Source: Nitrososphaerota archaeon
GTDB taxonomy: Archaea > Thermoproteota > Nitrososphaeria_A > Caldarchaeales > Caldarchaeaceae
Assembly: GCA_041641305.1 (NCBI GenBank)
Contig: JBEPYN010000001.1
Location: 512,001 to 576,000, forward strand
Direction: 5' to 3'
Length of the DNA: 64,000 bases
Shown piece after piece: positions 2,627 to 19,785 of the stretch. Within the stretch, counting starts at the first letter, position 1. Each line of letters begins with the position of its first letter. A program made the translations under genes and the position numbers. The notes below the pieces were generated by a model. The model worked only from the letters and a program-made list of their open reading frames with translations. It was not told where the DNA came from and made no database searches.

Positions 2627-2667
2627 TTGAGAAAAAGGCTCCATAACCCGAATAAATACCAGCCGTT

Positions 2668-3357: not shown

Positions 3358-3618
3358 CCCTCTTAACAGGCTCAGTCAGAGAAACTCTCCGCCAGTCGCG
3401 TAGAAGAGCCCAGAAAGCGGCCGTCAAGAAAATGAAGAAGACGAGGCCTGACACGATGTCTATGCCCTGCGGTATCCCCGTTAGACGGCCGCTTAGCTGC
3501 AGCAGGACTAACCCCCTCCCCGCAACCGACACCGCCGCGGCGACTATTATAACTTGTGGCCTAATTTGCTCGACTCTATGCCCTATTCTCCCGCCGCTCG
3601 CTCTCCTCCAGTAGGACT
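3320..3618 (-). pseudogene. Small membrane protein, apparently 5'-truncated at the island boundary
   Basis: The 3320..3532 frame stays open upstream (VLLEESERRRIGHRVEQIRPQVIIVAAAV) to about 3618 without a good start; two hydrophobic segments. Confidence 0.4.
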
Positions 3619-3630
3619 TAGAGGGGTGAG

Positions 3631-3731
3631 AGTGAAGGTAGGTCGTAAGCCTTACTGTTCATATGCAACCAACATTGAGACCTGAGAAGCGCCGAGACAA
3701 AGCCGTAGAAAGGCCTCGAAAACCGGAAAAG
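3631..3731. repeat. Dispersed ~100-bp non-coding repeat, copy 1 (copy 2 at 61550-61652)
   Basis: Colinear by-eye alignment AAGGTAGGYCGTAAG...GCAACCA...AGACAAAGCC..AGAAA. Confidence 0.7.
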
Positions 3732-3873
3732 TAAGAGAAGAAAAGGCATCTTTTAAGAGATTATCCTATCCTTACCAGCCTCTAATATACTCTCTTTATG
3801 CAACCAGTAAAGAAGTGAACATCAGGAAGAGTCATAAGGCATAAATAATTAAGGAAAAAATGAGGGGATGGTT

Positions 3874-4026
3874 GGCTGGCAGGCACCCAACCAACAACAT
3901 CTAGGAAACCCAAAAAGAAGCCGGCCGTTTAAGAGTTTAGCGAGGCGTAGACATCGCCCGTTTAATAGTCGGGCGTACCGGCTTCTGGGTTTTATCCTTG
4001 TTGTTGGGCCGGTACGCCTGCCAGCC
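3874..4026 (-). ncRNA. Putative guide (bridge-RNA/tigRNA-like) hairpin RNA overlapping the 3' end of the IS110-like gene
   Basis: Nested stems GGCTGGCAGGC/GCCTGCCAGCC, CCAACAACA/TGTTGTTGG, AAACCCA/TGGGTTT and GAAGCCGGT/GCCGGCTTC enclose an 18+18-nt internal loop capped by GGCG-ATGTCTA-CGCC. Confidence 0.55.
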
Positions 4027-4834
4027 TCTCCTGGGTTTCCCGTCTGATTGTCAGCCAGATTGTTTTTAGTAGTTCTTGTTGTTGTTTTCCTCGAGGTATC
4101 CCATGTAGGACCATTGTTAGCCTTGTCAGGGCCTGTCTGACACCATGGTTGTATCTCTTCTCCCGTCTATTGCCATGGAGTTTTAGATAGTTTCTCACCT
4201 TTGTGAAGGATTTGCTGAAGTCTATAAATGTCAAGAGCTCCGCCAAAGCCTCCCTAGACGTCAAATGATTGTCACCAGATAATCCAAGTTCTTCTACAAG
4301 CCTGTTGTAGACTGGGTATCTTATGCCAGCCTCCTCCGAAATAATTTCTGCCAGCTCTCTCATTCTCTCCTCGTTGAACCTTATCACCGTCCTCAGTATT
4401 CTTCTCTCCATCTCCGAGACTGCCTTAGACATGTTGAGTAGTCTTTGATGAGTTTTTAGGAGGCTTCGGAAAGCGGCTATCATCCTCCTCATTATGAGGA
4501 AGTCTTCATCAACTCTGCGGAACCACTTCTCTTCAATAGCCATCAGAGCCTTGATGTCAGCTCTCGCGGACTTGGATTTTATGTTCAGCCTCTGCCTCAC
4601 CACCTCAATCATCGATAATCTCCGAAGATAGTAGACCTCTGCGCCTCTCCTCAGAAGCATTATGAAACCATCTGTGTGGATTATTGGGATGGTGTCGACG
4701 AATACCTTGTCTCCCGGGCCTGCCGGTATATCCACCGGAGAATCAACATGCCTAAAGTTTTCACCGTCCGTAGTGTAGGTTACCCGGTATCCGGTGTCAT
4801 CCCTCTTCCTGTGAACATCGCAGTAGAACCTCAT
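3992..4834 (-). CDS. Compact IS110-family-derived protein (RuvC-like N-terminus, coiled coil, truncated Tnp/Nop-like domain; TasR-like)
   Basis: FYCDVH resembles GIDV; KSARADIKAL resembles KTDxxDA; ALAELLTFIDFSKSFTKVRNYLKL resembles LAEIGDxxRFxxxxxLxxYxGL; only 280 aa. Confidence 0.6.
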   Translation of the reverse strand: MRFYCDVHRKRDDTGYRVTYTTDGENFRHVDSPVDIPAGPGDKVFVDTIPIIHTDGFIMLLRRGAEVYYLRRLSMIEVVRQRLNIKSKSARADIKALMAIEEKWFRRVDEDFLIMRRMIAAFRSLLKTHQRLLNMSKAVSEMERRILRTVIRFNEERMRELAEIISEEAGIRYPVYNRLVEELGLSGDNHLTSREALAELLTFIDFSKSFTKVRNYLKLHGNRREKRYNHGVRQALTRLTMVLHGIPRGKQQQELLKTIWLTIRRETQERLAGVPAQQQG

Positions 4835-5209
4835 CTACACCACCTTCCTTAGGACTATGGCGTATTCGTGGTAGAGGTCGTGGTTATGACCCTTGACTGT
4901 ATGGTATTTGGCGAAGTGGCCGTTTGAAAGCCTGAACTTCAAGGCCTCGACATGCCGGAGACCAACGTATTCTGCGAGCTCCTTGGTAAGCTCTACGAGG
5001 TTCTTACCTCGTCTGCATCTGTCGCAATTCCTCATCCTGCTTCCGCAGTGGTCGCAGTATGTAGAGAGCCATCTCTGCAGCAAGTATTCTCCGTAGAATC
5101 CGCCTAGGATGCCCACAACCATCAGAAGAACACCCTCGAACAAACGCCCCTCATTGACCAACTGAATCCCGTAGACAAGAGCTATCGCAACCAGCGCAGG
5201 CATCAGCAT
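4835..5209 (-). CDS. Small membrane protein with CxxC-x5-CxxC zinc finger
   Basis: Likely ATG at 5209 after GAGGGTG; two TM helices, then CDHC..CDRC; its TAG stop abuts the ATG of the IS110-like gene. Confidence 0.6.
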   Translation of the reverse strand: MLMPALVAIALVYGIQLVNEGRLFEGVLLMVVGILGGFYGEYLLQRWLSTYCDHCGSRMRNCDRCRRGKNLVELTKELAEYVGLRHVEALKFRLSNGHFAKYHTVKGHNHDLYHEYAIVLRKVV

Positions 5210-6822
5210 ACTGCTGGACACCCTCTGCACCCCCACACCATTCCTCCGCGGCCGATGGGCAGTGTTTCCACGGATGGGTCGGACCCGCCCATCCGCAGAG
5301 TCCCTGGCCATCCAGACGACCTTACCCCCGGGAACCAGGGGTTTTGGAGGGCTTGGAGACACATATTCCCTCCCCATGAATGGGGGAGGCGGCCTATGAC
5401 AGCCGAGAAAATCTCCAAACCCTCTCAAAGCCGTCTGGAGAATGGTGTGGAGAACGTTAACAGAACATCGTAACCATCTGTCCCCGCCCACGGATTTGGA
5501 GCCGCTCCCACCAAGCGCCTCCATGACGCCATGATAGGGAGAACCCGTGGAGGAGACACCATGCCTCCCCCATGGAAAAACAGGCTCCAAGAATTCCCAG
5601 GCGGAGTATCTGAACAAACGTCTGACTATCTTCTGCCGGTCGCCTGTCCTGTCCACGGTGTCTAGGGGGCTGTGTAGTCATGCGTAGCACGGCCTACACA
5701 CCCCGCCATGCCAACCATGCGTAGCACGAGAAGGCATGCTTTGTCGAGACACCTGGACAGGCTTCAGCCGCATCGGCTCCGCCCCGGCTCCGTCATGCGT
5801 AGCACGGCCGAAGCCTTTCCCATCCCATGCATCCCGGAGAAGCCTGTCATGCGTAGCACGGCCAGGCAACTCCACAGAGACACCCGTCATGCATGGCACG
5901 GCCGGGTATCTGGGGCGGCAGATGCATGGGCTGGAGCGGAGCCGGAAGCCAGCCAACCACCCCCGCCACCCCACAAACAATTGAATGGGGTGGACGCCAT
6001 CTCTCAGGCGTATATGGGAAAAAACAAGGAGTGTTTGGATGGCTGGAGTTGTTCAGCTATGTTTGAATTAAAATTCTCCCGTTATGGGCTCAGGATGGCG
6101 GGGAGAGTCAGCCAACCTTCCCCCTCTATCCGGGCTTGTAGCCGTTTCTTCGACCCCTTTCCCCTGCTGCGGCTTGGGGATTTCCTTTGCGAGGGGTCTT
6201 TGGGCGAACGGCGGTCAGCCCGGCGCGGACGCCCAGCAAAACATGGAGAAGAGAAGGGTTCTAACGGGTTAGAATCATGTTATTGCCCCAGCCTATTCCA
6301 CCCCCTTGGATGAACCGTCCAGCACCCGTCTTTCCCCGGAGCGGTCTAGTGCCCAGGGCTTGGATAAATCATCCATGCACCGGAGCGTCCCCGAGCCTCA
6401 CCGGACCATGCCCTTAGCGGGCAAGCCATCAACCCGGAGAACCCTAGACCATATCCGGAGAGGCGGCAGCTCATCCAAGGGAGCAGCCCATCATCCCGCG
6501 GAGACGCTCAGGCAAAGCCTATAAGGAGGACTCTACTCCTCCCTATGGGCATCCCTGCCACGCCTCTGTGGTTCGGGGGGAACTCTGGGCGGCTGGGGTG
6601 CCCTCTCCACTCCATGTCCGCAGCGCTCCTATGCTTGCCGGCTTCGACGACCTGCGTGAATGTCGGGGGACTTTGGGGACAGGTTTGCCGGCACCCATCC
6701 CCTCGCCGCAGCCTTTTCAGGCTGTGGACCGGTTCCGCATCCGGCTCCCCAGCTCAGCCCCGTCGCCGGGGCTTCATGGGAAGCTCACGCAAGCCAGCCA
6801 ACCCCTTGGAGAGGCTGGTCTA
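5210..6822 (-). ncRNA. Putative large structured ncRNA or ssDNA structural region
   Basis: No credible ORF; many perfect stems, including 11-bp long-range pairings 5233-5243/5440-5450 and 6303-6313/6471-6481; lies downstream of a TATA at about 6847-6853. Confidence 0.45.
5671..5910 (-). repeat. Array of five hairpins with conserved apex (GGCCGTGCTACGCATGAC) and variable complementary flanks
   Basis: Cores at 5677-5694, 5716-5728 (partial), 5792-5809, 5846-5863 and 5886-5903 (variant). Confidence 0.85.
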
Positions 6823-6842
6823 ACATCATTTCCCCAACCTCC

Positions 6843-7051
6843 CCCATATAAAGTTTTGGTGGCAAACCTGAACGAGATTTGAACGAGAGTTGAACGAGAA
6901 ATGTACGACGGCGGCTAATATTGTTCAACGCCTCTCTGGTGAGCCAAAAATCCGGCGAATCAGGCTGACCATAATTGTTCAATCTCGTACAAATCTCGTT
7001 CAGTTCTCGTTCATTTCTCGTTCAAGTTTGCCACCAAAAGTTTATCTAGGG
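6843..7051. promoter_or_regulatory. Palindromic divergent promoter pair with 11-bp iterated TGAACGAGA sites (or plasmid-type origin)
   Basis: ~60-bp inverted arms, each with 3x TGAACGAGA(NN) plus TGTACGA, ending outward in GCCACCAAAA-(C/G)TTTAT (BRE-TATA-like). Confidence 0.7.
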
Positions 7052-7448
7052 TTCCTTACGTCTCAGACTAACCTATTTAAAGGTATATGGTTGAAAACCG
7101 CGGACAAGCAACCCCAATTCCAGGAAATTTCGGGGTTCTGGAGAGACCTAAAATTTCCTGTAAACGCTGTTTTTCAGCCAAGTGTCTATCGGTTGACAAA
7201 TTATAGTCAACCCCCTTCCGTAGAAGGGTGAAATTTCGGGGAATTAGGCGCGGTAATACGGTGACCAAAATTACTTGGCTATGGTAATGCCTCTTGTCTC
7301 TATGGCTTGTAGAGGCGATTTTTCAGCTTTCTGGGACGGGTTTTTGAGATTTTTTGTGGGCTGCTCGTCGTTTGTCGATTCTGAGGAGACGATATGTGGA
7401 GGCTCGTGGTTTATCCGTCTATATGCTTGCCGCCGTATCTGCTTCTAT

Positions 7449-8009
7449 GTGAAGAATAGGAAACAGGGTAGAGGGCGGTACATTGTTCTCGTCCCAGCGG
7501 TGTTGCTGATGGTTTTCACAATATACCTTATGCTGACCCCTCCTCAGACAACGGACTCAGTTAATGTGACGAACAGAGCCACAGCACCAGACTTCACGCT
7601 CGAAACAATAGACGGCAAAGGGTTGACAGGCGGAACACTATCCTTCTCAAGCCTGCGGGGAAAACCCATACTCATAGACTTCGTATTCGAATGGTGTCCA
7701 CACTGCAACAACATGGCGCCTATCATGGAGAGGCTCCACAAAGAGTATGGAGACAGGGTAACATTTGTCACGGTCATGGGCTCTCAGAACACCAATCCCG
7801 AGAAGTCTGCAGAGTTCCTAGCTAGACATGGCGTAAAATGGGCGGCGGTATACGACAAAACGATGAAGACATTCATTGACTACGGTGTGAGGGGGACGCC
7901 TACATACGTATTCATACGACCAGACGGGACAATACTACGCAAATTACCGGGAGAACCGCCATACGAGACACTCAAGCTCTCCGTAGAGGAGCTATTAACA
8001 GGGCTCTAA
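7449..8009 (+). CDS. TlpA/ResA-like membrane-anchored thiol-disulfide oxidoreductase
   Basis: TM anchor, APDFTL, WCPHC, YGVRGTPT; likely GTG start at 7449. Confidence 0.9.
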   Translation: MKNRKQGRGRYIVLVPAVLLMVFTIYLMLTPPQTTDSVNVTNRATAPDFTLETIDGKGLTGGTLSFSSLRGKPILIDFVFEWCPHCNNMAPIMERLHKEYGDRVTFVTVMGSQNTNPEKSAEFLARHGVKWAAVYDKTMKTFIDYGVRGTPTYVFIRPDGTILRKLPGEPPYETLKLSVEELLTGL

Positions 8010-8104
8010 ACGCCCTCTGAGTTAGCAGACAAGTTGAGAAAGAAATGGCTTCTGAGGTGGAGAAGAGGAAGACAATACGAGTCAGGCATTAAAACCATAT
8101 AAAC

Positions 8105-8830
8105 TTGGACAATAGCTCTTCGTCATTGGCGATGCCGAGGAAAACAAATCGCTCATATATACTGCATCGAGGTATTGGGAAAGTTGAGAAAAAAGCTACT
8201 TATGAGGAGCTAAACCTGAAACTGCTTGAACTCTTATCCGACTGCTGGGACAGAGTCATATCGCTCGATTTTGAGACATACGTTGTCGAAAACAGATTCT
8301 TGAACGATGAGAAAATACTGTCAGTTAGTTTCGCTAGGAGGGTTTCGGGGAAAACAATGCAGGCTGAAGGTATCGAGGTTAAGTCTAATGTTTTAAATAA
8401 AGAAGACAAAGACTCTGAAAAACAAATGCTTGATTGGTTGGATGAGGAGCTGGGGAAGATTAATCCTCTCGGAGTCGTAGGATATATGCTCAGAGCGTAC
8501 GATATTCCGCTTTTAATAATGAAAAAAGAGCGCAACAAGGTGGAAGGCTCACCGTACTGGAAAATAATAGACCTAACAGAGAACGCAGTACATGTGGACC
8601 TCTACCACCTGCTCAGGGACAGAGGTTACAATAATCTGTACGACGCCATATCATCACTATCCCAAAATCTTCCTCTAAAGAAAGTAGAAGATTACTTATC
8701 TCAAAATAGAGAAATGAAGGGAAAAGCTGTCAAAGAGTTATGGGAAAAAGGGGCACTCAAAGAATACAACGAAGGACATGCATATAACATGTTGCTGATT
8801 GCGGAATGGCTCACATTCGGAGGAGAGTAA
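8105..8830 (+). CDS. DnaQ/PolB-type 3'-5' exonuclease-like protein
   Basis: ISLDFETY (ExoI) and GYMLRAYDIPLL (ExoII); ExoIII is atypical (YNEGH); start may be 8131. Confidence 0.6.
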   Translation: MDNSSSSLAMPRKTNRSYILHRGIGKVEKKATYEELNLKLLELLSDCWDRVISLDFETYVVENRFLNDEKILSVSFARRVSGKTMQAEGIEVKSNVLNKEDKDSEKQMLDWLDEELGKINPLGVVGYMLRAYDIPLLIMKKERNKVEGSPYWKIIDLTENAVHVDLYHLLRDRGYNNLYDAISSLSQNLPLKKVEDYLSQNREMKGKAVKELWEKGALKEYNEGHAYNMLLIAEWLTFGGE

Positions 8831-9233
8831 TGACAACCGTATACTATTCCGATTGTCCATCCGAGAGGCTCGCTGTACTCCTTCACAATCTCGTCATATG
8901 TTGTGAAAACCCTTCTCTTCACCAACTTTGACCTGCTCTTCACCAACCCATCACATCATGTAATAATCCTCCCATATAACGCTAGGATGCCATCATATAG
9001 AAGTGCTTCCTTGACCATGTTTTGGCAGACTCAGCAGCCAAATATAGCCGTGTCTACCGCAGTCTCTTTCTCCAGGGTAGGTTAACGAGTCGGCTTCAGA
9101 TACACCAACACCGCCATATACTATCTATCAGCGTTTTCGATAACGCTTCTGCTCGCCAACATGGGTATGAGCTATGGGTTCTTCGGATTCTTCAAACTAT
9201 GAGGATGTAATCGCTCATCGGGCGAAACAATGA

Positions 9234-9587
9234 CTAGAGCCAGACTCCTTTCGCCCCGACGCATCTGAGAACCATCAAGTTTTTCTCGTTGTCGGGAATA
9301 TTTTTGCCAGAAACAGACGCTCTCTGCGGGGCCGAAAGCACGTAGAACAGCTCTTCACCAACCTCTGCTATGTCTCCTACAGTGAACTTCAGCAGCCACT
9401 TCCTCAGAAGCTCGAGCGTCGGAGCATGTCTGACGTATACGATGACTTTATCATATTTCTTAGCGTCGGCCGCGAGCTCATCGAGAGAAGAGCTGCTAAC
9501 CTGTATACAGAAGCTTGGAAAAAGGCTAGAGAAAGCTGACGGCGGCAAAGACGGCAACACCTTAAGGACATTCTTTCTCGCACTCAT
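9234..9587 (-). CDS. DUF1874 (STIV B116/AcrIII-1)-like protein
   Basis: 117 aa; SLDEL..VIVYVRHAPTLELL..YVLSAPQR..GK parallels the family pattern SLEE..SAIGHxxTAxLL..FQLxxRLxEGK. Confidence 0.45.
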   Translation of the reverse strand: MSARKNVLKVLPSLPPSAFSSLFPSFCIQVSSSSLDELAADAKKYDKVIVYVRHAPTLELLRKWLLKFTVGDIAEVGEELFYVLSAPQRASVSGKNIPDNEKNLMVLRCVGAKGVWL

Positions 9588-9715
9588 GAAGTCGATTTCT
9601 CAGCCGAAAAATAAAAGGCATCATCTGCATAATGGAACCGTCAGAAATTGTTGAATGCAACCTTGCCCGGGTGGTCTACGTTTGGCCGGAAACGGTTAAT
9701 ACTGGGAGAAGTTTT

Positions 9716-10354
9716 ATGATGGCGATGAATCCCGGCAAGGTATTGCCGGCTATCCTGCTTGTTGTAGGCCTGTTGGCCGGGTTCTTCAGCGGCTCGGTTC
9801 TAAGCCCCGTAACAGTCACCAGCACGTTGGTCAAAACCTCCATTTCGACAAGCGTAAGCACGGAGCAGGTGACAAAAACTGTGTCCACCACCGTGACTTC
9901 GTACGAGACCCTTAGATGGTCTACTACGCTTTTCGTAACGGCCCGCACCACGTTAACTTCGGTCTCAACCAGTATCTCCACCCGGACAACCACGGTTACA
10001 TCGACCACTACCGCAACCACTACAATGGTTTCAACCGTTTACCCCGCCGTCTCGGGAACCGTGCTGGTGAGAGACAGAGGCAGCGGCTCTAAGGAGACGC
10101 CGCCGTTCACGCTCGAGGCGACCTCAGACCTAAGGATAAAAATCACGATAAGGGCTACGGCCGACCTCCGATACGTCGGCTTATATTGGTACCTGTATGA
10201 AGTGGGCGATGACCTATCCTATAAGAGGGGCTCTATTCTAGAGGAGCAGGGGTCCTTCGAGTTCTACGCCGCAGCCATTCCGCCCGGTAACTGGTACATA
10301 CAGGTGAACGCCGCCAACTGCAACTGGGAAATCACTGTCGAAAAAGTTACTTGA
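9716..10354 (+). CDS. Membrane-anchored Thr/Ser-rich surface protein with C-terminal beta domain
   Basis: N-terminal TM, long T/S/V tract, PPC-like C-terminus (PPGNWYIQV). Confidence 0.7.
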   Translation: MMAMNPGKVLPAILLVVGLLAGFFSGSVLSPVTVTSTLVKTSISTSVSTEQVTKTVSTTVTSYETLRWSTTLFVTARTTLTSVSTSISTRTTTVTSTTTATTTMVSTVYPAVSGTVLVRDRGSGSKETPPFTLEATSDLRIKITIRATADLRYVGLYWYLYEVGDDLSYKRGSILEEQGSFEFYAAAIPPGNWYIQVNAANCNWEITVEKVT

Positions 10355-11957
10355 CAGATTCCGAGAACTCTCTCCATCTTTCCAGCATAATTTTCCGCCT
10401 CTCCTTCAGGAATTCTTCATAGTTCTCGCGTTTCCATAGCTCAGGGTCGAGCGGAATGCAGTGCTCCCGTAACAGAGCAGGGTCCTGGTCGTAGAGTTTG
10501 CTGAGATACTCCGACGGCTCTTTATCCCTCAGAGTCTTGTTACTCAGGCTTGAGAGAAATGTGATGTTTGCCGCATCATTCTCCAGCTCGGGGTCTAGCA
10601 ACTTCCTTTTGAAAAGGTATTGTGGGAAGATGTGGTGCTCGTTTATCTCACTATCTCTTAGCTCCCATATCTTATCCGGGTCACCCCCATCCCTGGGCGT
10701 CCAGTCACGGGCATTATAAGATTTGAGGAGAATAGATAGCAGGGTTCGGTGCTCGTCGGAGAATTCCCGCTCCAGATAGTCGGGCAAGAGCTCCTTCACC
10801 TTCAGATTTTCTACTAGTCGTCCAACATCCCAACTATTCTTCACCGATTCCAAGTCTTCTAAGAGGTCGCTCTCCAGCCGTCCAGTATATCTGCCATTGA
10901 ACGATGCCAGTACAAGCCACTTAACCAGCTCATGTTTAAACTTCTTGTCAACCAGCTTGCCCTGTGACAGATAGTTGTTATGCATGATTATCGCGGGCAT
11001 GACGGGGAGGTAATGCGATACCAAGAACTTCGGCCTGGCTCCGTATTCCTGGAATATGTCGAGAACACTCTGGATAGCCTTGAACGTATTGTTTAAGTAT
11101 TTGAGCAAAGTCTCGGAATTGTTCCTCATCAGCTCATTCAGAGCCGGCTTAAATTTTACCTGACCAGTTGCAATGGCTAAGTATGCCCGTATAAGAGGCG
11201 GGGCGTCGACATCATATCCCCTGGTTTGCAAGTCGCTCAGCAATGTTTCAAACTGGTCCCTGAACCTCTTTCCCTGTTCATGTATGATTTTACCGGACAG
11301 GAGCGCTAATACGAGGTCGTGTAGCTTCACCTTGGTTCCCTGGCTGTTCAAGGCCACGAACATCCGCGAGATATTCTCGAAGGCCTCGAGATGGTTATCC
11401 CTGCTCCACTTTATCGTAACCTCCATGAAGGTCACCTTGTAATCGTTGAAACGCTGCCAAAGCCTCGTCAGGCTATCGTAGATTTTCGGTTGTCTCACAG
11501 AATGCTTCTGAACCAATTCAGAATATTCCCTCGCCTGCAACACCTCTGACACTTTGTACAAGTTACCGCCTGGATTAGTTCTGCCTCGGCCAAGAATGAA
11601 TTTCTCGTTCAATGCATCGAATAGAAGGTTAATCCTTTTTGTTTCCTGGTTTATGGTTATTTCGCCATTATTTATCAGGAGTAGAGATGTCAGCCTCTGT
11701 CTGCCATCAATCACCATGTAGCGTCCGTTCTTTAAATTCATGTTATCGGCGATTGGCCTGAAAATGTTTTCGAGCTCCTCACGCACATCCGTAGGTATCT
11801 CGGCCACGCATATCGACCCTATTGGAAAACCGTTGTAAATAGACTCCGCGAGCTCCAGCACCTGCCTGTTACGCCATACAAAGGGTCTCTGAATATCAGG
11901 GACTATGAACTCACCCTGCTCAAGCTTAGACATCAAATCCCTAAGGAGCATATCCAT
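10347..11957 (-). CDS. gmrSD: GmrSD type IV restriction endonuclease (DUF262 + DUF1524)
   Basis: PDIQRPFVW, IDGRQRLTS, FVALNSQG and C-terminal EHHIFPQ...ANITFLSSLSN. Confidence 0.85.
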   Translation of the reverse strand: MDMLLRDLMSKLEQGEFIVPDIQRPFVWRNRQVLELAESIYNGFPIGSICVAEIPTDVREELENIFRPIADNMNLKNGRYMVIDGRQRLTSLLLINNGEITINQETKRINLLFDALNEKFILGRGRTNPGGNLYKVSEVLQAREYSELVQKHSVRQPKIYDSLTRLWQRFNDYKVTFMEVTIKWSRDNHLEAFENISRMFVALNSQGTKVKLHDLVLALLSGKIIHEQGKRFRDQFETLLSDLQTRGYDVDAPPLIRAYLAIATGQVKFKPALNELMRNNSETLLKYLNNTFKAIQSVLDIFQEYGARPKFLVSHYLPVMPAIIMHNNYLSQGKLVDKKFKHELVKWLVLASFNGRYTGRLESDLLEDLESVKNSWDVGRLVENLKVKELLPDYLEREFSDEHRTLLSILLKSYNARDWTPRDGGDPDKIWELRDSEINEHHIFPQYLFKRKLLDPELENDAANITFLSSLSNKTLRDKEPSEYLSKLYDQDPALLREHCIPLDPELWKRENYEEFLKERRKIMLERWREFSESVK

Positions 11958-12162
11958 GTCGTGGAAAAAATCAACGAGAAGTATAAATCTTAAGCGACAT
12001 TTTTCTCAACCCCTGCCTCCAATGCTTCGTTCTCCGCCACTAGACAGACTGAGCTGCCACCCATTATTCCACAGAATCATATGTTCCTACCGTTCCCATC
12101 AACCCTCTGAAACAGCCACGTTCTCTTAAAACTTAATTTTTAAGGTCAGGATTATAGTTTTC

Positions 12163-15100
12163 ATGAATTTTGGGCTTGATTTCTGGGTGGCTTGTTTATC
12201 TGAGAGAGGCTACCAACTTCATAGAGACAAGCTTGACATCGAAACTCTGTTCAAGACAAGGGTTCTTCTCAGCAGTGATGTGAAGGAGGCTTACCTACTC
12301 TATAGAGATGATTTTGTAGAGGTTGTGGCACTAATTTTTGACGAGCTTCCAGGCAGGGGTTATTGCGCTAGGATTGCTCGGCGATGGCGTGAAAAAAGAC
12401 TGCTTAGGCCTTTCCTGATATTTACCGACAATATTTCGTCTTATGCGGTGATTGTTAGAGGGCCGGGGCTGGGTGAGGAGGTTAGAGTGCTGCATTTAGA
12501 GGGGCAGTTGTATAGAACAGATTTGGAGGCTCTCGAGTCAGTAACCCATCCAGGAAAACCTGACGAGCTCAGGAAGAAATATGATACGGAGTTCTTCCCA
12601 TATGAAAAGGTTAGGGAAGAGTTTTTCCAGCAGTATAAGAAACTGTTTGAGAAAGTCATTGAAATCGTTAAACCCGTTTTCGGAGAGAACCGTGCTAAAG
12701 AATATGCTCAACGGTTTCTAGGCAGGCTGATGTTTCTCTACTTTCTCCAGAGAAAGGGGTGGTTAAACAACGATAGACAGTTCATAAACAAGTTGTCCGG
12801 TTTCAGAGAGCTTAACAGAGTCTTCTATGAGCTTTTAAACAAACCGGGGGGAGGAGACGGTGTACCATATCTAAACGGCAGCCTCTTTGACAGGGAGGAG
12901 TATCTAACAGCTGAGGCTGAGAGAAAGATAGAGAAGAAAATGGATAGTTTGTTTAATGAAGCTAGGGAGGTGTTTAACCGATACAACTTCACCGTCAACG
13001 AGACTTCGCCGCTGGAGGTTGAGGTAAGCGTAGACCCTCTGCTGCTGGGAACAGTTTTGGAGAACATGCTTCCCGAGCATGAGAGGGGAGCCAAAGGAAC
13101 CTTCTACACACCGGTCAACGAGATAAACTTCATCTGTAGAAAAGCTATACAGGCTTGGCTGGGCCTAGAGGACAGGGTAGACGAGACAGGGACCAGGCTA
13201 ATCGACGGGCTCGAGGAATACATCAACCAGTTAAAAGAAAGGCGGGACGAGGCGGAGATAAGAGAGTTCAGGAACAGGCTTCTATCTTTGAAAGTATGTG
13301 ATCCCGCCGTCGGCTCGGGAGGGTTCCTCGTGGTGATGATGCAGACGATACTGAGCCTTATTCAGGAGGTTGAGGAGGCTGTAGGCTGGCACGCCGACCC
13401 AGCTATCTACAAGTCGAGAATCCTACCCAACCTCTATGGATTCGACATAGAGCCCGAGGCCGTCGAGATAGCGAGACTCCGTCTATGGCTCTCCCTCGTA
13501 GTTGACCAGAAGAAACCCGAGCCACTCCCCAACCTAGACCTAAACATCATGGTGACAAGCGACTCCCTCAGCCTCCCACAAGGTGGACAATCCCTTATCG
13601 ACCAATACTACACATCTAGCAGGATTAGAGAACTGGTCGACAACCTGAACGAGCTTAAAAAGAAATACACAACCGAACACAATCCAACAGCGAAGAAAGA
13701 GCTTCAGAACCGCATCGAGAAAATCTGGCGAAAACTTGTGGAGGAATTTGGGAGCGAAGAATTAAAGACTCTACCGCTTGAGCTAATCATGATGAGCCGA
13801 CCAGACATAATAGTGATGAATCCACCCTACGTAAGACAGGAGAAAATACCTCCTAGAACAAAGGAGCACTATGTAAAGAGCTATAGACTGGACAGGACAT
13901 CGGACATCTACGCATTCTTCATGAAAAGAGCCCTTAACTTACTTAATGAGAAGGGTGCAGCATCCATAATATCATCCGACAAGTGGCTCGAGGTCGGGTA
14001 CGGCTTAAAGCTGCAGGAGACGCTGAAACCCCATCTCCTGGCTGTCTACGGCCAGCGTGAAAGAAGCTTCGGAGCAGACATAAACACAGTAATAACAGTG
14101 CTCAGAAAAGAAAAACTACCAGACAACCACAGCATACAGTTCATCTACCTAAGCAAATACGGCGAAAAAACAGTCATCAACCACAAATCCATACCAAGAG
14201 GAGAGCTCAAGCCAGGGAAATGGTACTACCTAAGAGCACCGAAAATATTCGAAGAAACCCTACTACCAAAACTAACCCACAAGCTGAAAGACTTCGCCGA
14301 AATAAAATTCGGCATTAAGACCGGTGCTAATGAGTTCTTCTACATGAAGGACGTCAGCCACCTATACGAGGCAGACTACCTAGCAAACCCAAGAAGATTC
14401 CACGAATGGGGAGTAAATGCACGAAACCAAAAAGAACTCGAAGAACAAGAACTTATATACATAGAGAATGAAGCAGGAAAAAGATTCGTGATAAATAAAA
14501 AAGATGTAAGACCTATTCTCCGGTCGCCAGAAGAAATTCACGAATATATGTTTTCACAATTCAAGAAACTCTGTCTGTATACAAGCAATCCAGGTTCATT
14601 AACCACAAAATACATTAGAAAATATGAAAAAGAGGGAATACACCGCCGATCCACTCTCAGAAATAGGTCACCTTGGTGGAAACTTCCAGAGTTAGAAACC
14701 ACTAGTATCGTTTTGATAAAGTCATTCCACAATGTAATTTATGAACCGATATGTCCTAAACCCGTTCTCGTGGACCAGAGAGCTTATGTATTTAAGCCCC
14801 GCAACCTCAAATCATTAGAAGATGTGTGGAAGTACTTCAACAGCACGATTTTTTACTTAACTATCGAACTTTATTGTGATAGGTTGGGCGGAGGAGCGAC
14901 AGATATCAGGGTCGAAGATTACAAAGAAATGCCAGTCCCCGACTTGTCCCGATTACATATAGCGTTTGACGCTAAAAGGTTGTGGAATAGAAAACCATTA
15001 CCTTACAATGAGGAGGTGCAGCAGGCTGATAGACGAGAATTAGACAAAGCTGTGCTTAGAGTCCTAGGCTTCCCCGAATCCGAACTAGATAGGCTTGTCG

Positions 15101-15210
15101 ATGAACTTCACAAGGCTTTTGTATGGGTTGTCGAGGACCGCTTGATAAAATCCGGCAGACCTCTACACGTAGAAGAAGAGGAAGGGGCTGTGGTTGACGA
15201 AGATAGTTGA
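12163..15210 (+). CDS. Large N6-adenine DNA methyltransferase (Eco57I/type IIG-like)
   Basis: GTFYTP, motif I DPAVGSGGF, motif IV MNPPY, YLNGSLF, C-terminal TRD-like region. Confidence 0.9.
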   Translation: MNFGLDFWVACLSERGYQLHRDKLDIETLFKTRVLLSSDVKEAYLLYRDDFVEVVALIFDELPGRGYCARIARRWREKRLLRPFLIFTDNISSYAVIVRGPGLGEEVRVLHLEGQLYRTDLEALESVTHPGKPDELRKKYDTEFFPYEKVREEFFQQYKKLFEKVIEIVKPVFGENRAKEYAQRFLGRLMFLYFLQRKGWLNNDRQFINKLSGFRELNRVFYELLNKPGGGDGVPYLNGSLFDREEYLTAEAERKIEKKMDSLFNEAREVFNRYNFTVNETSPLEVEVSVDPLLLGTVLENMLPEHERGAKGTFYTPVNEINFICRKAIQAWLGLEDRVDETGTRLIDGLEEYINQLKERRDEAEIREFRNRLLSLKVCDPAVGSGGFLVVMMQTILSLIQEVEEAVGWHADPAIYKSRILPNLYGFDIEPEAVEIARLRLWLSLVVDQKKPEPLPNLDLNIMVTSDSLSLPQGGQSLIDQYYTSSRIRELVDNLNELKKKYTTEHNPTAKKELQNRIEKIWRKLVEEFGSEELKTLPLELIMMSRPDIIVMNPPYVRQEKIPPRTKEHYVKSYRLDRTSDIYAFFMKRALNLLNEKGAASIISSDKWLEVGYGLKLQETLKPHLLAVYGQRERSFGADINTVITVLRKEKLPDNHSIQFIYLSKYGEKTVINHKSIPRGELKPGKWYYLRAPKIFEETLLPKLTHKLKDFAEIKFGIKTGANEFFYMKDVSHLYEADYLANPRRFHEWGVNARNQKELEEQELIYIENEAGKRFVINKKDVRPILRSPEEIHEYMFSQFKKLCLYTSNPGSLTTKYIRKYEKEGIHRRSTLRNRSPWWKLPELETTSIVLIKSFHNVIYEPICPKPVLVDQRAYVFKPRNLKSLEDVWKYFNSTIFYLTIELYCDRLGGGATDIRVEDYKEMPVPDLSRLHIAFDAKRLWNRKPLPYNEEVQQADRRELDKAVLRVLGFPESELDRLVDELHKAFVWVVEDRLIKSGRPLHVEEEEGAVVDEDS

Positions 15211-18200
15211 CAATTCAAAGGAAACTCTGCAGAGTGTTCTTTTGAAGGAGTTACAGGAGGTTTCTGAGGTTGCTATCGCGACAGCGTACTTCAACATCAC
15301 GGGCTTCGGCGACATAGAGCCCGGCTTAGCAGACAAACCTCTACGCCTCCTACTAGGCAGGCCTCCCACCGAGCAGATAGAATGGGAGGAAGAAGTTCTT
15401 AGAGAGCTTGAGGAATATGAGGATGACCCTCGATACTTCAGTCTTCTGCAGAGAGTGATAACGTTTTTTGAACATTATTCTAGGGAGGTGAGAATAGTTG
15501 ATGGAAAGTTTTTCCACGGCAAGGCGTTTCTGGGAGTTCACCCGTCTTTCCAAGACGTTAGGAGGGGGTTTGCATCCGTGGGCTCAAGCAACTTCACCCA
15601 TGGAGGACTGGTTACCAACAGGGAGCTGAACATGTTCACAACGGATAGGGAGACTGTTCAAGAGCTGGCGGAATGGTTTCAAAAACAGTGGAGCGATATG
15701 TTTTCAAGAGACTATAAGAACGAGTTCCTAAGCCTTCTAAAAACATACGTCACCTCATGGAGTCCATACGAGGTCGCGGCCAAAGCATTGTGGGAAACCT
15801 ATAAAAAAGATTGGGAAACCAAGAGGCCGAATATACTCAAAAACCTGTACCCGCATCAGCAGCTAACCTTCATAGACGCATTAGACAAGCTGGAAAAATA
15901 CGGCGGCGTAGTTATCGCCGATTCCACGGGTCTTGGAAAAACCCTTACGGCCTTGGCCATAGCTCACTACTATAAGGGTCTTGGTGTCAAGTCTCTGCTC
16001 ATAGCTCCCAAAAGCATACTCGACACTACTTGGATGACCGAGATGGATAGCTCCGACATATGGGTTAAGTGGATAAACTCCGAGAAACTTTCAGCAGACC
16101 CAGAAATAGTGGAACAATATGTAAACAATGATAAAAGCATTGGGTTGATTATCGTTGATGAGGCGCATTATTTCCGCAATCCTGCAACAAACCGTTACAA
16201 CGCACTAAGCAAGCTGATTAAACTTACCAGGTCCAAGGTGGTTCTGGTAACTGCCACACCTGTAAACACAAGCCTCATGGACCTGTACCACATAATGGCG
16301 CTCTATCTTCCAGACAACATCATATTTGACGAATACAGAACTACGCTGGGAGAATATTTCATACAGAGCCAGAAAAAATGGCTGAACAACGAGCCAGTAG
16401 ACATGGAAGATATTCTGAGGAAATTCGTGGTGAGACACTCTAGACAATTAGCAAAGGCGCTGGACAGGGAGGGCAGGATAAAATTCCCGGAGAGACAACT
16501 ACACACCATAAAATACGACCTGCCACTCGACGTGGAAAAACTATACAATCTCCTCGACAAACTTAACCTATATTTCTACGAGCTCAGCGTAGACAAGCTC
16601 TCTCAACAGTTCAGGCTACCTGATGGAACACCCGCCATAAAATATGAGAAACAAGCCGAAAACCTGAAAGACCTGATAAAGGTGATACAGAAGATAGGTC
16701 TTCTCAAAAGACTGGAAAGCAGCATACATGCGTTCAGAGAATCCATCAACAGAATTAAGAAATACATTGAGTACGCAACAATCTATGCAGAAAAAGAATC
16801 CATATTCATACCTCCCAAGCTCAAAGGGGACCTGTTCGCTCTGCTCGGCGAAGAAGAGGAACAGGCAACCCTTCCAACAATGGAGGACCTATTCTATAAA
16901 CATCGACACCTTCTCGAAAAATGCAGTCTAAGCAACCATGAGAAACAAAAACTTATCCAGAGCAACAGGGAAGACCTGAAGACAATTGAAGAAGTGATAT
17001 CGCTGCTACCCGCCAGAGACACAAAAATTGATGCTTTTCTAAAGGAAGTTAGCGATGTCGCCAAAAAATTGTCAAAAAGGAACGGCATAATAATATTCAC
17101 CCAATACATCGACACAGCAAAATACGTTTTCGATGCCCTCAGAAACAGCTACCCGTACTCTATCCTCGTAACAGGCGAGGGCGGAAGAGATAGCAGTGGT
17201 AAGAGAATTGAGGAGGCCGAGGCTGTTGAACACTTTCAGAAAAACGGAGGCATATTGGTTAGCACAGACGTTTTGAGCGCCGGGCAAAACCTCCAAAACG
17301 CTCAATACATAGTCAACTACGACTTCCCATGGAACCCCGTAATACTTATACAAAGGGCTGGGAGAGTTGACCGAATAGGCTCCCCCTATGACAGCGTCTA
17401 CCTCTTCAACGTTCTACCCCATCAAGGAGGCCCCGACGACCCAACCAGCCTCGAATACTTCCTGGGCCTCATGACGAGGCTCTACCAGAGACTTGAGGCC
17501 ATCAGAGCCACCATAGGGCTTGACGCATCAACCCTGGGTGAAGAAGCCATACCTAGAGACTATACAGAGCAGAGAAGAATAGCCGCCGAGGACAAAAAAG
17601 TTTTAGCGGAGCTTGAGAAAAAACTTGAGCAATTCACGAAAGACCCGTTGGACGACCTAGCCCAAATAATCAACGAGAGAGGAATAGACTGGGTTGAGAA
17701 GCTTCCCAACGGAATAGGAGCGTTGAAAAAAGACAGCTTCGACGCTGTTTTCGCCCTCTTCACAGACGGGCAACAGCACTACTGGAGGTTGAAAAACCTA
17801 GACACGGGCGAGACCTTGACGAAGCCGTCCGAGATAGTTCCTATCCTGCTCCGCGGGGACGTTCACAGCAAAGGAGAGAGGATAAACTACGACATATTAG
17901 TGGATAAGCTGAGACAATTAAAAGAGGAGCTCAGAACAGAGCTGTTGAAAAAACAGACAATAACCACAACCATAGAAGACATCCCAGTATCGGTTACCAA
18001 AATCGTTAAAGAAATATACGAGGCACTAGAGAGGTTGGGAGAGGAGGGAATAGTTTTAGCCGCAAGGTTCAGAAAACAAGCCAACAACCCAACCACCGTC
18101 AAAATACTGAAAAAAGCACTAGAGGAGGGAAAACTACTCGAAGAAGCAAGGAAAATCCTCAAAGAAGACACCCAAACCAAAGCATCAAACAACAACCAGA

Positions 18201-18265
18201 CACTAAAAATCAAAAGAATATGCTGGTGCTACATAAGGAAGGAAAACCAACCCAACAACCCGTAA
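15194..18265 (+). CDS. PLD nuclease domain fused to SNF2-like SF2 helicase
   Basis: FHGKAF..GSSNFT (PLD), ADSTGLGKT, DEAH, TATP, QRAGRVDRIG; overlaps the methyltransferase stop. Confidence 0.9.
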   Translation: MTKIVDNSKETLQSVLLKELQEVSEVAIATAYFNITGFGDIEPGLADKPLRLLLGRPPTEQIEWEEEVLRELEEYEDDPRYFSLLQRVITFFEHYSREVRIVDGKFFHGKAFLGVHPSFQDVRRGFASVGSSNFTHGGLVTNRELNMFTTDRETVQELAEWFQKQWSDMFSRDYKNEFLSLLKTYVTSWSPYEVAAKALWETYKKDWETKRPNILKNLYPHQQLTFIDALDKLEKYGGVVIADSTGLGKTLTALAIAHYYKGLGVKSLLIAPKSILDTTWMTEMDSSDIWVKWINSEKLSADPEIVEQYVNNDKSIGLIIVDEAHYFRNPATNRYNALSKLIKLTRSKVVLVTATPVNTSLMDLYHIMALYLPDNIIFDEYRTTLGEYFIQSQKKWLNNEPVDMEDILRKFVVRHSRQLAKALDREGRIKFPERQLHTIKYDLPLDVEKLYNLLDKLNLYFYELSVDKLSQQFRLPDGTPAIKYEKQAENLKDLIKVIQKIGLLKRLESSIHAFRESINRIKKYIEYATIYAEKESIFIPPKLKGDLFALLGEEEEQATLPTMEDLFYKHRHLLEKCSLSNHEKQKLIQSNREDLKTIEEVISLLPARDTKIDAFLKEVSDVAKKLSKRNGIIIFTQYIDTAKYVFDALRNSYPYSILVTGEGGRDSSGKRIEEAEAVEHFQKNGGILVSTDVLSAGQNLQNAQYIVNYDFPWNPVILIQRAGRVDRIGSPYDSVYLFNVLPHQGGPDDPTSLEYFLGLMTRLYQRLEAIRATIGLDASTLGEEAIPRDYTEQRRIAAEDKKVLAELEKKLEQFTKDPLDDLAQIINERGIDWVEKLPNGIGALKKDSFDAVFALFTDGQQHYWRLKNLDTGETLTKPSEIVPILLRGDVHSKGERINYDILVDKLRQLKEELRTELLKKQTITTTIEDIPVSVTKIVKEIYEALERLGEEGIVLAARFRKQANNPTTVKILKKALEEGKLLEEARKILKEDTQTKASNNNQTLKIKRICWCYIRKENQPNNP

Positions 18266-18316
18266 CAACATGAACCTGTGAAAAAACGTATAAAGCCACT
18301 GACCAAGTATTTAGAC

Positions 18317-18534
18317 GTGGCTGCTATCTAGGAAATTACCAGAATCTATCTTGAGACAGCTCAGACAGACTTGGGTGCGGCCAACTTCCTCTACCAGAAG
18401 GAATTCTACCCGCATGCTTTAGACAAGTATTCGAACTACGATAAACCTGGGGAAATAATCAGAGGCGCCAAACAGATTCTAAGGAGCCTGATTTTTAACC
18501 AGAATTTGAGCGCTGTACCTTCTCCACGCAATTA
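18317..18534 (+). pseudogene. HEPN-domain fragment with premature amber stop
   Basis: GTG-GCT-GCT-ATC-TAG, then EITRIYLETAQTDLGAANFLYQKEFYPHA, resembling a HEPN N-terminus. Confidence 0.5.
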
Positions 18535-18578
18535 GGCCTCATCCGTTTTTATGCCTGTATGTTTGGGTTACTATCTCG

Positions 18579-18956
18579 ATGAAGTGTGGTTTGGCTGTTT
18601 TGCTTGTTTTGCTGGCTTTTTTGCCTCTGGCAGCTGCTGAGCCGGGGTTCTTCTTCAGAGTAACCGACTGCGCCACCGGAGAGCCCATTGCCGGGGCGTT
18701 GGCGGCCATCATACGCGGAAGCTATGGCAACGGCGTGTCCACTAACGCAACCGTATACGCATACTTCGATTCACCTTACGGAGAATACACCTATTATATT
18801 TCCATGCAGGGCTACAGGATGGGAGGCGGGGAAGAAGTGAAAAGCATGAAGAAACCCTCCAGATACAGAAATACAGCAGATATTTCACCTCATCGAAGGT
18901 ACGGGCTGAGACATAATAGCTACTTGACAGGTTTTCATTCACGCCATGAAGCCTGA
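18579..18956 (+). pseudogene. Truncated paralog of the N-terminus of the 19786..22290 surface protein
   Basis: RVTDCATGEPIAGA/STNATVYA/YTYYISMQGYR vs RVTDCITGAPIQGA/ITNSTGYA/YSYYVTASGYR; similarity then stops. Confidence 0.6.
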
Positions 18957-19189
18957 GAATTTCAGATTTTCGTGGCCAAACATCCTTATTCCTTGAAATT
19001 TTGCCTCTCTAAGGTTTACGGATAGGGAATCTTCGACTTTAGTCCCTCTCGAAAGATTATATGCTGTTTAGCGGTGGTGTTTACGCTGGTGGGCTGAGTT
19101 TGACCCATCAGCATTGTATATCGGATTTCTTTCCCCGAGAGGGTTTTTGAGAATATTGAGACTCACCCGTCTATGAGGCCACGGGCACG

Positions 19190-19630: not shown

Positions 19631-19781
19631 TCATGCGGCGGGCGCCATTGAGTTTAAAGAAGCGTCTGAAGATACCCAGGTTCAGCTCCCTCGCTATGCC
19701 GTAAACCATCCAGGTCAGGACAAGCGTCAAAATGAGCGTGACGAAGACCATCACAAACTCCAAGTCGGTGGACGACGTCAT
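19623..19781 (-). CDS. Small single-TM protein (52 aa, not in ORF track)
   Basis: MTSSTDLEFVMVFVTLILTLVLTWMVYGIARELNLG... starts 4 nt after the upstream stop. Confidence 0.5.
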   Translation of the reverse strand: MTSSTDLEFVMVFVTLILTLVLTWMVYGIARELNLGIFRRFFKLNGARRMIN

Positions 19782-19785
19782 CTTT

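What the first reader, a model, noticed from the sequence alone, without database searches (positions are those of the whole stretch)
3864..4834. Minimal IS110-derived (TasR-like) protein lacking the recombinase serine loop: candidate new RNA-guided DNA-targeting system
Seen: a 280-aa ORF with IS110-like N-terminal acidic motifs (FYCDVH, VFVDT, KSARAD), a coiled coil, and a region matching the start of the IS110 Tnp domain (ALAELL..F..VRNYLKL). It then passes directly to a GNxxLRxAL-like segment (YNHGVRQAL) with no QSG serine loop. Established: IS110 recombinases need the DEDD RuvC domain, this serine and a bridge RNA; TIGR-Tas proteins are related Nop-domain RNA-guided binders or nucleases. 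Inference: this is a compact RNA-guided nuclease or binder, not a working recombinase. Its guide would be a single hairpin overlapping the gene's 3' end, placed like the TnpB omega-RNA rather than in a TIGR array.
Basis: partly seen in the sequence, partly recalled or inferred. Interest (0 to 1): 0.9.

Follow-up and report, generated by a model that had tools for sequence, protein, structure and literature searches.

The report
RNA-guided mobile island targeting module
A small archaeal protein related to IS110 recombinases and TasR nucleases sits beside one hairpin RNA whose two short guides spell out both halves of the site where a 16-kb defence island is inserted, pointing to an undescribed RNA-guided way of placing mobile DNA.

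Summary
Window 3992-4834 (-) encodes a 280-aa protein with no Pfam or NCBIfam family. Its predicted fold (pLDDT 93) matches IS621/ISCro4 recombinases and TIGR-TasR over the full length. The IS110 serine domain is not detected. A stable, covarying hairpin (3874-4026) overlaps the gene's 3' end.

New here: the hairpin's internal loop carries two guides of about 8-9 nt. Read on opposite strands, they spell a 17-bp site, CGACTA-TTAA-GAGTTTA. That site is intact in four related genomes and in one metagenome allele. In this genome a 16.1-kb island (3550-19649) carrying GmrSD, an Eco57I-type methylase and a PLD-SNF2 helicase splits it. A 24-kb island splits the same site in another species.

A second island in this genome (14.7 kb) follows the same rule with different guides. 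Across 42 copies, 45% match their own downstream flank in antisense, against 3% for other copies' guides. The family is patchy and multi-copy (up to 33 scored matches per genome), and many copies are decayed.

I read it as the targeting module of a site-specific mobile element: single guide unit, target-only, no serine. Whether it cuts, recombines or only binds is open. No RNA or activity was measured. Earlier first-reader notes on this window had predicted an 18-bp target.

The parts
3992..4834 (-). Gene for the 280-aa RuvC + coiled-coil + Nop-like protein (P0001)
   Evidence: ORF and translation. AF2 pLDDT 93.1. Fold matches IS621, ISCro4 and TasR. No Pfam or NCBIfam family.
3874..4026 (-). 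Single guide-RNA hairpin: a long outer stem, an internal loop with two guides, and an inner hairpin. It overlaps the last 11 codons and the stop.
   Evidence: Fold z = -6.3. Conserved in all four genomic copies. Covariance model hit of 193 bits. Covariation.
3960..3971 (-). Guide A plus core (CGACUAU-UAAAC), 5' side of the internal loop
   Evidence: Matches the left flank 3541-3549 and the empty sites.
3927..3939 (-). Guide B plus core (UAAACUCU-UAAAC), 3' side of the internal loop
   Evidence: Its reverse complement TTAAGAGTTTA is present in the empty sites and at the G011 right junction.
3940..3959 (-). Inner hairpin separating the two guides
3853..3867 (-). Pyrimidine/T run after the outer stem, a likely archaeal terminator. 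Homology between copies ends here.
   Evidence: Loose ends at 3852-3855 in metagenome contigs.
3541..3549 (+). Left attachment half-site in host DNA (CGACTATTA), same sequence as guide A
   Evidence: Homology with G011, G003, G010 and G006 ends here.
3550..19649 (.). 16.1-kb inserted island bounded by the two half-sites
   Evidence: A metagenome contig joins 3549 to about 19650. The flanks are contiguous in G001 and G003. G010 and G006 carry the same undisrupted site sequence.
19650..19656 (+). Right attachment half-site in host DNA (GAGTTTA), reverse complement of guide B
19190..19630 (+). 146-aa zinc-ribbon-like ORF at the far end of the island. Conserved at the far end of the second island and next to the gene in several shorter elements.
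   Evidence: tblastn. No Pfam or PHROG family.
4835..5020 (-). C-terminal remnant of a methyltransferase-like gene whose stop overlaps the start codon (TAGATG). Longer in copy L004, which has an SPPY motif.
   Evidence: Only a weak N6_N4_Mtase match.
10347..11957 (-). Cargo: GmrSD-like restriction endonuclease
   Evidence: PF03235, E 1.4e-26
12163..15210 (+). Cargo: Eco57I/MmeI-type DNA methyltransferase, 1015 aa
   Evidence: PF07669, E 1e-27
15194..18265 (+). Cargo: PLD nuclease + SNF2 helicase, 1023 aa
   Evidence: PF00271, PF00176 and PF13091

Best explanation
The gene and its 3' hairpin RNA form the targeting module of a site-specific mobile element, here a 16.1-kb defence island.

A protein dimer held by its coiled coil is proposed to bind one hairpin RNA. 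The two roughly 9-nt guides in the RNA's internal loop pair with opposite strands of a 17-18-bp attachment site and meet on a central TTAA.

Shown: the guide-to-site match, the presence/absence of the island exactly at that site, and the same rule at other copies.

Inferred: the RNP recognises the unoccupied site. Because the protein lacks the IS110 serine domain and resembles TasR, it most likely makes a staggered hydrolytic cut there. The element would then be installed or restored by host repair or homologous copying (homing and retention, as proposed for TnpB), not by serine-mediated strand exchange.
For: 1. Fold: IS621/ISCro4 and TasR are the only strong full-length matches. The profile matches the TasH Nop domain (E 8.6e-4).

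2. Dimer: the homodimer prediction gives ipSAE 0.81 against a best control of 0.00. Runs agree in at least 97% of contacts, partner pLDDT is 86, and the interface is residues 117-164. In calibration the mark was reached by 20 of 30 solved homodimers and 1 of 23 solved monomers. This may reflect memory of solved relatives.

3. RNA: one hairpin per gene with strong covariation. The same layout is seen in a 28%-identical homolog.

4. Window site: guides A and B spell CGACTATTAAGAGTTTA. Four congeneric genomes and a metagenome allele carry it (or a version 1-2 nt different) undisrupted. The island interrupts it here, and a 24-kb island interrupts it in G011, whose own guide A (CGGCUAU) matches the consensus site.

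5. Second island (C1:439870-454532): guides GUCACAAU and AAAUUAAA; the empty site in G011 is GTCACAATTTAATTT.

6. Two further copies have a guide match exactly at the boundary of host homology.

7. Statistics: 19 of 42 copies have a 9-nt or longer antisense match to their own guides within 450 nt downstream, against 3.3% for non-self guides. In sense orientation it is 5% against 3.7%. In 5 of 5 clean cases the upstream and downstream matches use the two different guides.

8. Mobility: present in 23 of 75 genomes of the order, up to 33 scored matches per genome, with many stops, fragments and contig-end copies. The shortest elements hold no other matched gene.

9. No PF02371 in this genome or in most carriers.
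Against: - No RNA, binding or cleavage was measured.
- The third acidic residue of the DEDD tetrad is Ala in 40 of 44 Caldarchaeales copies, this one included, so nuclease activity is not assured.
- Homing by homologous copying does not explain spread to dozens of different sites with different guides (G032). It also does not explain an insertion at a near-cognate site (L037), or the 5-7-bp TTAA-containing direct repeats at junctions.
- How a new copy acquires guides that match its new flanks is unexplained.
- The window's own junctions are slightly eroded relative to the empty site.
- The left ends of the shorter elements are mosaic and poorly defined.
Confidence: 0.45

Rival explanations
1. 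The RNP is itself an RNA-guided integrase or transposase. It recognises the site through the guides and directly joins the element's ends to a staggered cut or TTAA core, using RuvC-type chemistry without the IS110 serine. The donor ends would be recognised by protein, by the small zinc-ribbon ORF, or by other parts of the RNA.
For: It is the only matched gene found in the 1.5-2.7-kb elements. TTAA-containing direct repeats of 5-7 bp flank the insertions. Dozens of copies lie at different sites in single genomes. L037 shares its guides with L045 and sits at a site with a 6 of 8 match. Homology between sister copies stops exactly at the TTAA/half-site boundary. The N-terminal domain leans to the IS110 DEDD type.
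Against: No conserved Ser, Thr or Tyr nucleophile and no PF02371. There is a single loop and therefore no donor-binding loop. The acidic tetrad is incomplete. Element ends are not conserved across subfamilies.
Confidence: 0.3
2. The protein is a catalytically weak RNA-guided binder that marks or protects the attachment site or regulates the element. Movement would be carried out by another enzyme supplied in trans, as TnpA does for TnpB-only elements.
For: Ala replaces one catalytic acidic residue. Stem-loop TasR clades with dead RuvC act as repressors (bioRxiv 10.64898/2026.09.09.750476). The left ends are mosaic.
Against: No integrase or transposase family was matched in the island ORFs scanned. 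D6, D47 and D93 stay nearly invariant across the family. Canonical IS110 is absent from most carrier genomes.
Confidence: 0.15
3. A chromosomal TIGR-Tas-like defence or plasmid-exclusion system whose guides target invaders.
For: TasR-like fold. The island cargo is defence genes.
Against: The guides match the host attachment site, not foreign DNA. There is no array. No relative was found in viral contigs with this query. Copy number and decay fit a selfish element.
Confidence: 0.03
4. The guide-to-flank matches are a cis RNA structure (the loop pairing with a read-through 3' tail) or chance.
For: The downstream matches are antisense and so could pair within one transcript.
Against: The second half-site lies 14-16 kb away, is in sense orientation, and sits at the other junction. 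The two halves are adjacent only in genomes without the island. A T run follows the hairpin.
Confidence: 0.01

Closest known systems
IS110/IS1111 bridge-RNA (seekRNA) recombinases, e.g. IS621 and ISCro4
   Same: The RuvC-like DEDD-type N-terminal domain, coiled coil and helical RNA-binding C-terminal domain match. IS621 and ISCro4 are the best Foldseek matches. The K-S/T-D-x-x-D-A motif is present in distant members. The non-coding RNA is encoded beside the gene. Its internal loop has two guides that read opposite strands around a short core, as in the target-binding loop. The element sits exactly at the guide-specified site.
   Different: No Transposase_20 domain and no conserved serine. There is one loop, not two, so no donor-binding loop. 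Each copy or lineage has its own guides and its own site. Cargo reaches 16-24 kb. Ala replaces the third acidic residue in this clade.
TIGR-Tas, RuvC-bearing TasR (PDB 9mty; PMC12045711)
   Different: There is no tandem array: a single unit is fused to the gene's 3' end. The system is chromosomal in free-living Caldarchaeales, not in phages or CPR bacteria. The guides target the element's own insertion site. The element is multi-copy and decaying like a transposon. The N-terminal domain leans to the IS110 type.
TnpB/IscB (OMEGA) with omega-RNA
   Same: The guide RNA overlaps the 3' end of the nuclease gene. The guide corresponds to DNA flanking the element. A retention or homing role is plausible. 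This rests on my own knowledge of the family and on the review PMC13565253 listed, which I did not read.
   Different: Unrelated protein fold. Here the guides are internal to the RNA and DNA-encoded, not read-through flank, and both flanks are read.
Archaeal box C/D sRNP (Nop5 with C/D sRNA)
   Different: Acidic residues are retained in the RuvC-like domain. The target is DNA flanking a mobile element. Fibrillarin or L7Ae partnership was not tested.

Membership tests
IS110 family recombinase | N-terminal DEDD RuvC-like domain (PF01548) with four acidic residues | tested here: inconclusive
   The fold matches. PF01548 is matched only weakly, below its cut-off, by 4 of 27 members (best E 0.0098) and not by the window protein. 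D6, D47 and D93 are conserved, but the third position is Ala in this clade.
IS110 family recombinase | C-terminal Transposase_20 domain (PF02371) with the catalytic serine | tested here: not met
   No PF02371 match at E up to 1 in any of 27 members. No conserved Ser, Thr or Tyr column in the C-terminal domain. The linker between the GL and N..R.AL motifs is 9 residues, against 18 in a canonical archaeal IS110 (motif-anchored reading). A residue-by-residue map to IS621 S241 could not be obtained.
IS110 family recombinase | Bridge RNA with separate target-binding and donor-binding loops | tested here: not met
   There is one internal loop with two guides per RNA, and both guides match target flanks. 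The only second hit in the window is weak (17.9 bits at 5999-6130).
IS110 family recombinase | Element inserted at the guide-specified target around a short core | tested here: met
   Empty and occupied sites for two islands. Family-wide statistics.
TIGR-Tas (TasR) | Nop domain with coiled coil and RuvC domain | tested here: met
TIGR-Tas (TasR) | Tandem interspaced guide RNA array next to the gene | tested here: not met
   One unit per gene in all loci and in the 64-kb window.
TIGR-Tas (TasR) | Two spacers pairing with opposite strands of one site of about 18 bp | tested here: met
   By sequence only: the guides cover 10 and 11 nt of a 17-bp site and overlap on TTAA. They cover 9 + 9 nt at L046 and at the second island.
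TIGR-Tas (TasR) | RNA-guided DNA cleavage by the RuvC site | not testable with these tools
   Needs biochemistry. The acidic tetrad is incomplete.
Box C/D Nop5 | Inactive N-terminal domain recruiting fibrillarin, and K-turn RNA bound by L7Ae | not tested

The most novel reading that the evidence does not exclude
This is a self-sufficient, programmable RNA-guided DNA insertion system of a new type. A 280-aa serine-less IS110/TasR-like dimer and one roughly 150-nt hairpin RNA with two 9-nt guides would be enough to place 1.5-24 kb of DNA at a chosen TTAA-centred site. The family would also be the long-sought archaeal lineage linking IS110 elements, TIGR-Tas and Nop5 box C/D RNPs.
Probability: 0.3. 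Interest if true: 0.95.

Novelty: new variant of a known kind. Interest (0 to 1): 0.85.

Why it matters
Known RNA-guided mobile systems fall into a few types:
- two-loop bridge RNAs with a serine recombinase (IS110);
- CRISPR effectors recruiting Tn7 machinery;
- flank-derived guides for a retention nuclease (TnpB/IscB).

Here a much simpler unit appears to define where islands of 1.5-24 kb sit, including defence islands, in thermophilic archaea. It has one short protein without the serine domain and one hairpin with two short guides that read both halves of the empty site.

If the RNP alone cuts or integrates, it would be among the smallest programmable DNA-targeting or insertion systems, and it comes from a hot-spring organism.

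It also bears on evolution. Vaysset et al. (PMC11213020) found no archaeal IS110 clade from which Nop5 could descend. This archaeal family has an IS110-like N-terminus, a Tas-like Nop domain and a C/D-like dual-guide RNA, which makes it a candidate for that gap.

Finally, the natural pairs of guide and attachment site found here give ready-made substrates for experiments.

Tried and rejected
- Pfam, NCBIfam and PHROGs on the protein gave no family.
- Rfam on window 1-12000 gave only a tRNA.
- Whole-genome search for exact 12-13-mers of the guides found nothing outside the guides themselves. The sites became clear only from local flanks and empty sites.
- An exact scan of JGI metagenome contigs for the 20-nt empty site gave 0 matches.
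- Viral contigs searched with the single protein gave no relative. The alignment was too divergent for that tool.
- hhalign against one canonical IS110 sequence, a C-terminal profile against PDB, and a pairwise alignment were all uninformative for placing IS621 S241.
- Automatic parsing of the loops from MFE folds failed for about half the copies. It was replaced by covariance-model columns.
- L036 (G032): the flanks in relatives are not contiguous, so no empty site was obtained.
- L003: the right junction could not be matched to guide B, because the intergenic site is too diverged between species.
- L004: the left flank was not found.
- Metatranscriptome run X18 holds only contigs of relatives at 85-95% identity, so it is no evidence that this RNA is expressed.
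That junction is an internal gene overlap; the element's boundaries are 3549/3550 and 19649/19650.

Full report
**The object**

Window 3992-4834 (-) is a 280-aa ORF. It matches no Pfam, NCBIfam or PHROG family.

A word-indexed search found 537 relatives, all labelled hypothetical. Those with a source name are mostly Caldarchaeum or Calditenuaceae, and there are several per genome. An exhaustive search of 1.84 billion representatives found only 103 clusters, so the family is narrow.

This genome holds four full copies at 61-77% protein identity to the window copy, plus one fragment. Across the order, 23 of 75 genomes carry the family, in a patchy pattern. One genome has up to 33 scored matches. 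Many copies have in-frame stops, are fragments, or lie at contig ends. That is the behaviour of a mobile element.

**Fold and family**

An AlphaFold2 model built from a 27-sequence alignment has pLDDT 93.1 and pTM 0.87.
- Foldseek against the PDB returns only IS621, ISCro4 and TIGR-TasR as strong full-length matches: E 7.6e-7 to 2e-4, TM about 0.6.
- By sequence profile, the best PDB match is the Nop domain of TasH (E 8.6e-4). IS621 is at E 0.67.
- Four of 27 members weakly match the IS110 DEDD domain PF01548. None matches the serine-bearing PF02371.
- Canonical PF02371 genes are absent from this genome and from almost all carriers.

D6, D47 and D93 are nearly invariant. Distant members read KSDENDA. 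In 40 of 44 Caldarchaeales copies, including the proliferating ones, the third acidic residue is Ala followed by Arg or Lys.

No Ser, Thr or Tyr column is conserved in the C-terminal domain. The link where IS110 carries its serine hairpin is 9 residues, against 18 in a canonical archaeal IS110. This is a motif-anchored reading, and I could not obtain a residue-level map to S241.

A symmetric homodimer through residues 117-164 is predicted. ipSAE is 0.81 against a best control of 0.00, with at least 97% contact agreement and pLDDT 86. In calibration the mark was reached by 20 of 30 solved homodimers and 1 of 23 monomers. This may reflect likeness to solved relatives.

**The RNA**

DNA homology between the four genomic copies runs about 140 nt past the stop codon. 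The region folds into a long hairpin at 3874-4026: -85.9 kcal/mol, z = -6.3.

A covariance model built from 22 copies finds one such hairpin 3' of essentially every copy in 50 loci, and only one strong hit in the 64-kb window. Of 27 modelled pairs, 23 show compensatory changes. 88.6% of cells are paired, against 74.5% in shuffles and 30-52% with slid partners. That alignment includes antisense rows of the same hairpins and is fitted to the model.

Reading 5' to 3', the layout is constant:
1. outer stem;
2. a short motif (UAUGNC or GGGCU);
3. about 8 variable nt;
4. a UUAAAC-like motif;
5. an inner hairpin;
6. the same three elements again (motif, variable nt, UUAAAC-like motif);
7. the closing stem;
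8. a T run.

A 28%-identical homolog on an unrelated contig has the same design, with a canonical GUGAUGA box. The variable stretches differ completely between copies whose scaffolds are 85-94% identical.

**What the guides match**

Each copy's two variable stretches match DNA flanking that copy. One appears in sense orientation upstream. The other appears as a reverse complement downstream. Each is next to a TTAA.

| Test on each copy's own guides | Own guides | Other copies' guides |
|---|---|---|
| 9-nt or longer antisense match within 450 nt downstream | 19 of 42 (45%) | 3.3% |
| Same, sense orientation | 5% | 3.7% |
| Upstream, sense | 29% | 12% |

In five of five clean cases the two flanks use the two different guides. 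Homology between sister copies stops exactly at the TTAA/half-site boundary, so the half-sites are host DNA.

**The window copy**

Guide A (CGACUAU-UAAAC) matches window 3541-3549. A hot-spring metagenome contig follows the window up to 3549. It then continues with a sequence whose first bases are the reverse complement of guide B, and which matches window 19650-19670.

A search with window 2600-20600 shows the two flanks contiguous in G001. Local alignment shows the same in G003. G010 and G006 carry the same junction sequence.
- The undisrupted sites read GC(C/G)GCTATTA-AGA(G/T)TTTAAAG.
- The metagenome allele reads CGACTATTA-AGAGTTTAAAG.

The two guides together therefore specify CGACTA-TTAA-GAGTTTA, overlapping on TTAA.

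In G011 the same site holds a 24.4-kb island with its own copy of the gene at the same end. That copy's guide A (CGGCUAU) fits the consensus site, and the right junction keeps TTAAGAGTTTA.

The window island (3550-19649) carries a GmrSD-like nuclease, an Eco57I/MmeI-type methylase, a PLD-SNF2 helicase, a thioredoxin-fold protein and a PolB-exo-like protein. No integrase family was matched in the ORFs scanned.

**Other copies**

- A second island in this genome (C1:439870-454532, 14.7 kb) has the paralog L002 at its end. G011, G001, G003 and G005 have the flanks contiguous. The G011 site, GTCACAATTTAATTT, is spelled by L002's guides GUCACAAU and AAAUUAAA, and ATTTAA is repeated at both junctions.
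- The L003 element is a 3.6-3.7-kb insertion absent from five relatives. Its left boundary coincides with guide A. The right side is unresolved.
- For L004, the reverse complement of guide A lies exactly where host homology with G011 begins.
- L037 carries the same guides as L045 but sits at a site matching 6 of 8 positions, which suggests insertion at a near-cognate site.
- A 146-aa zinc-ribbon-like ORF marks the far end of both islands. It lies divergently next to the gene in several shorter elements, but it was not found in the G032 copies.

**Interpretation**

I regard the guide-to-site relation and the presence/absence polymorphism as established by sequence. The system works like the target-binding half of an IS110 bridge RNA, or like a single stem-loop tigRNA. 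However, it fails defining features of both families:
- no serine domain and no donor loop, so it is not IS110;
- no array, so it is not TIGR-Tas.

The step after recognition is inferred, not shown. I favour a staggered hydrolytic cut of the empty site followed by repair-driven installation or retention. The reasons are that the serine domain is missing and the closest serine-less relative is a nuclease. A self-sufficient integrase remains a serious rival, given the minimal one-gene elements, the TTAA-containing direct repeats and the spread to many sites.

Two things remain unexplained: how new copies acquire guides matching their new flanks, and why the left ends are mosaic.

**Literature**

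In the library searched I found no description of this family.
- The TIGR-Tas papers place these systems mainly in phages, archaeal viruses and CPR bacteria, with arrays.
- Vaysset et al. report no further archaeal IS110-like families and no archaeal clade ancestral to Nop5.

**Earlier notes**

Earlier first-reader notes on this window had predicted an 18-bp target from the symmetric loop and had flagged the defence module. The target prediction is borne out here.

Noticed in passing
window 5000-7200: GC-rich, non-coding, repeat-rich stretch just upstream of the gene. Window 5462-6010 is 90% identical to the equivalent position in the second island (C1:441168-441709). Pieces recur at C2:450221-452405 and beside G011 copies. 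It also holds a weak hit of the guide-RNA model at 5999-6130 (-), 17.9 bits. It could be a second structured RNA of these islands.
   Followed up: partly
window 19190-19630 (+): 146-aa ORF with a CxxC...CPxH zinc-ribbon-like end and no known family. It is conserved at the far end of both islands and lies divergently beside the gene in elements L003, L019, L007, L012 and L005. It may be an accessory factor.
   Followed up: partly
window 10347-18265: Defence cargo: a GmrSD-like nuclease divergent from an Eco57I/MmeI-type methylase that overlaps a PLD-SNF2 helicase. G011 has 74%-identical homologs at C1:715-721 kb, outside its island at this site.
   Followed up: partly
L072:7986-8464 (G000 C2:462985-463463): A 480-nt repeat sits between the guide RNA of copy L004 and its half-site. 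Copies at 87-92% identity lie at C1:747812-748289 and in G011 (824066-824544, 129721-130135). It may be another small mobile element or part of a variant right end.
   Followed up: no
window 3751-3763 (+): TTTTAAGAGATTA, a 2-mismatch look-alike of the guide-B target, lies inside the island's near-end tail, about 100 nt from the RNA. It may be a relic site or chance.
   Followed up: no
G032 (loci L034-L050, L057): One genome of about 2 Mb gave 64 DNA matches to one element region, with at least three guide-RNA scaffold variants. It also has repeated left-end segments (S1 about 90 nt, S2 about 80 nt) at variable spacing, a sign of a recent burst and nested insertions.
   Followed up: partly
G000 C2:514700-515020 (L005): A decayed element: the first 40 codons of the gene (93% identical) lie next to a fragment of the 146-aa ORF, 3.3 kb from copy L003.
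   Followed up: no
L081:1285-1410: The guide hairpin of a 28%-identical homolog carries a canonical box C (GUGAUGA) next to one guide. This hints at a direct link to C/D-box RNAs.
   Followed up: no
window 2285-2551: Contigs from two hot-spring metagenomes (X3, X5) skip 265 nt just beside the tRNA gene at 2551-2626. This is a second presence/absence difference near the island.
   Followed up: no
No Pfam or PHROG family matched it here.
   Followed up: partly
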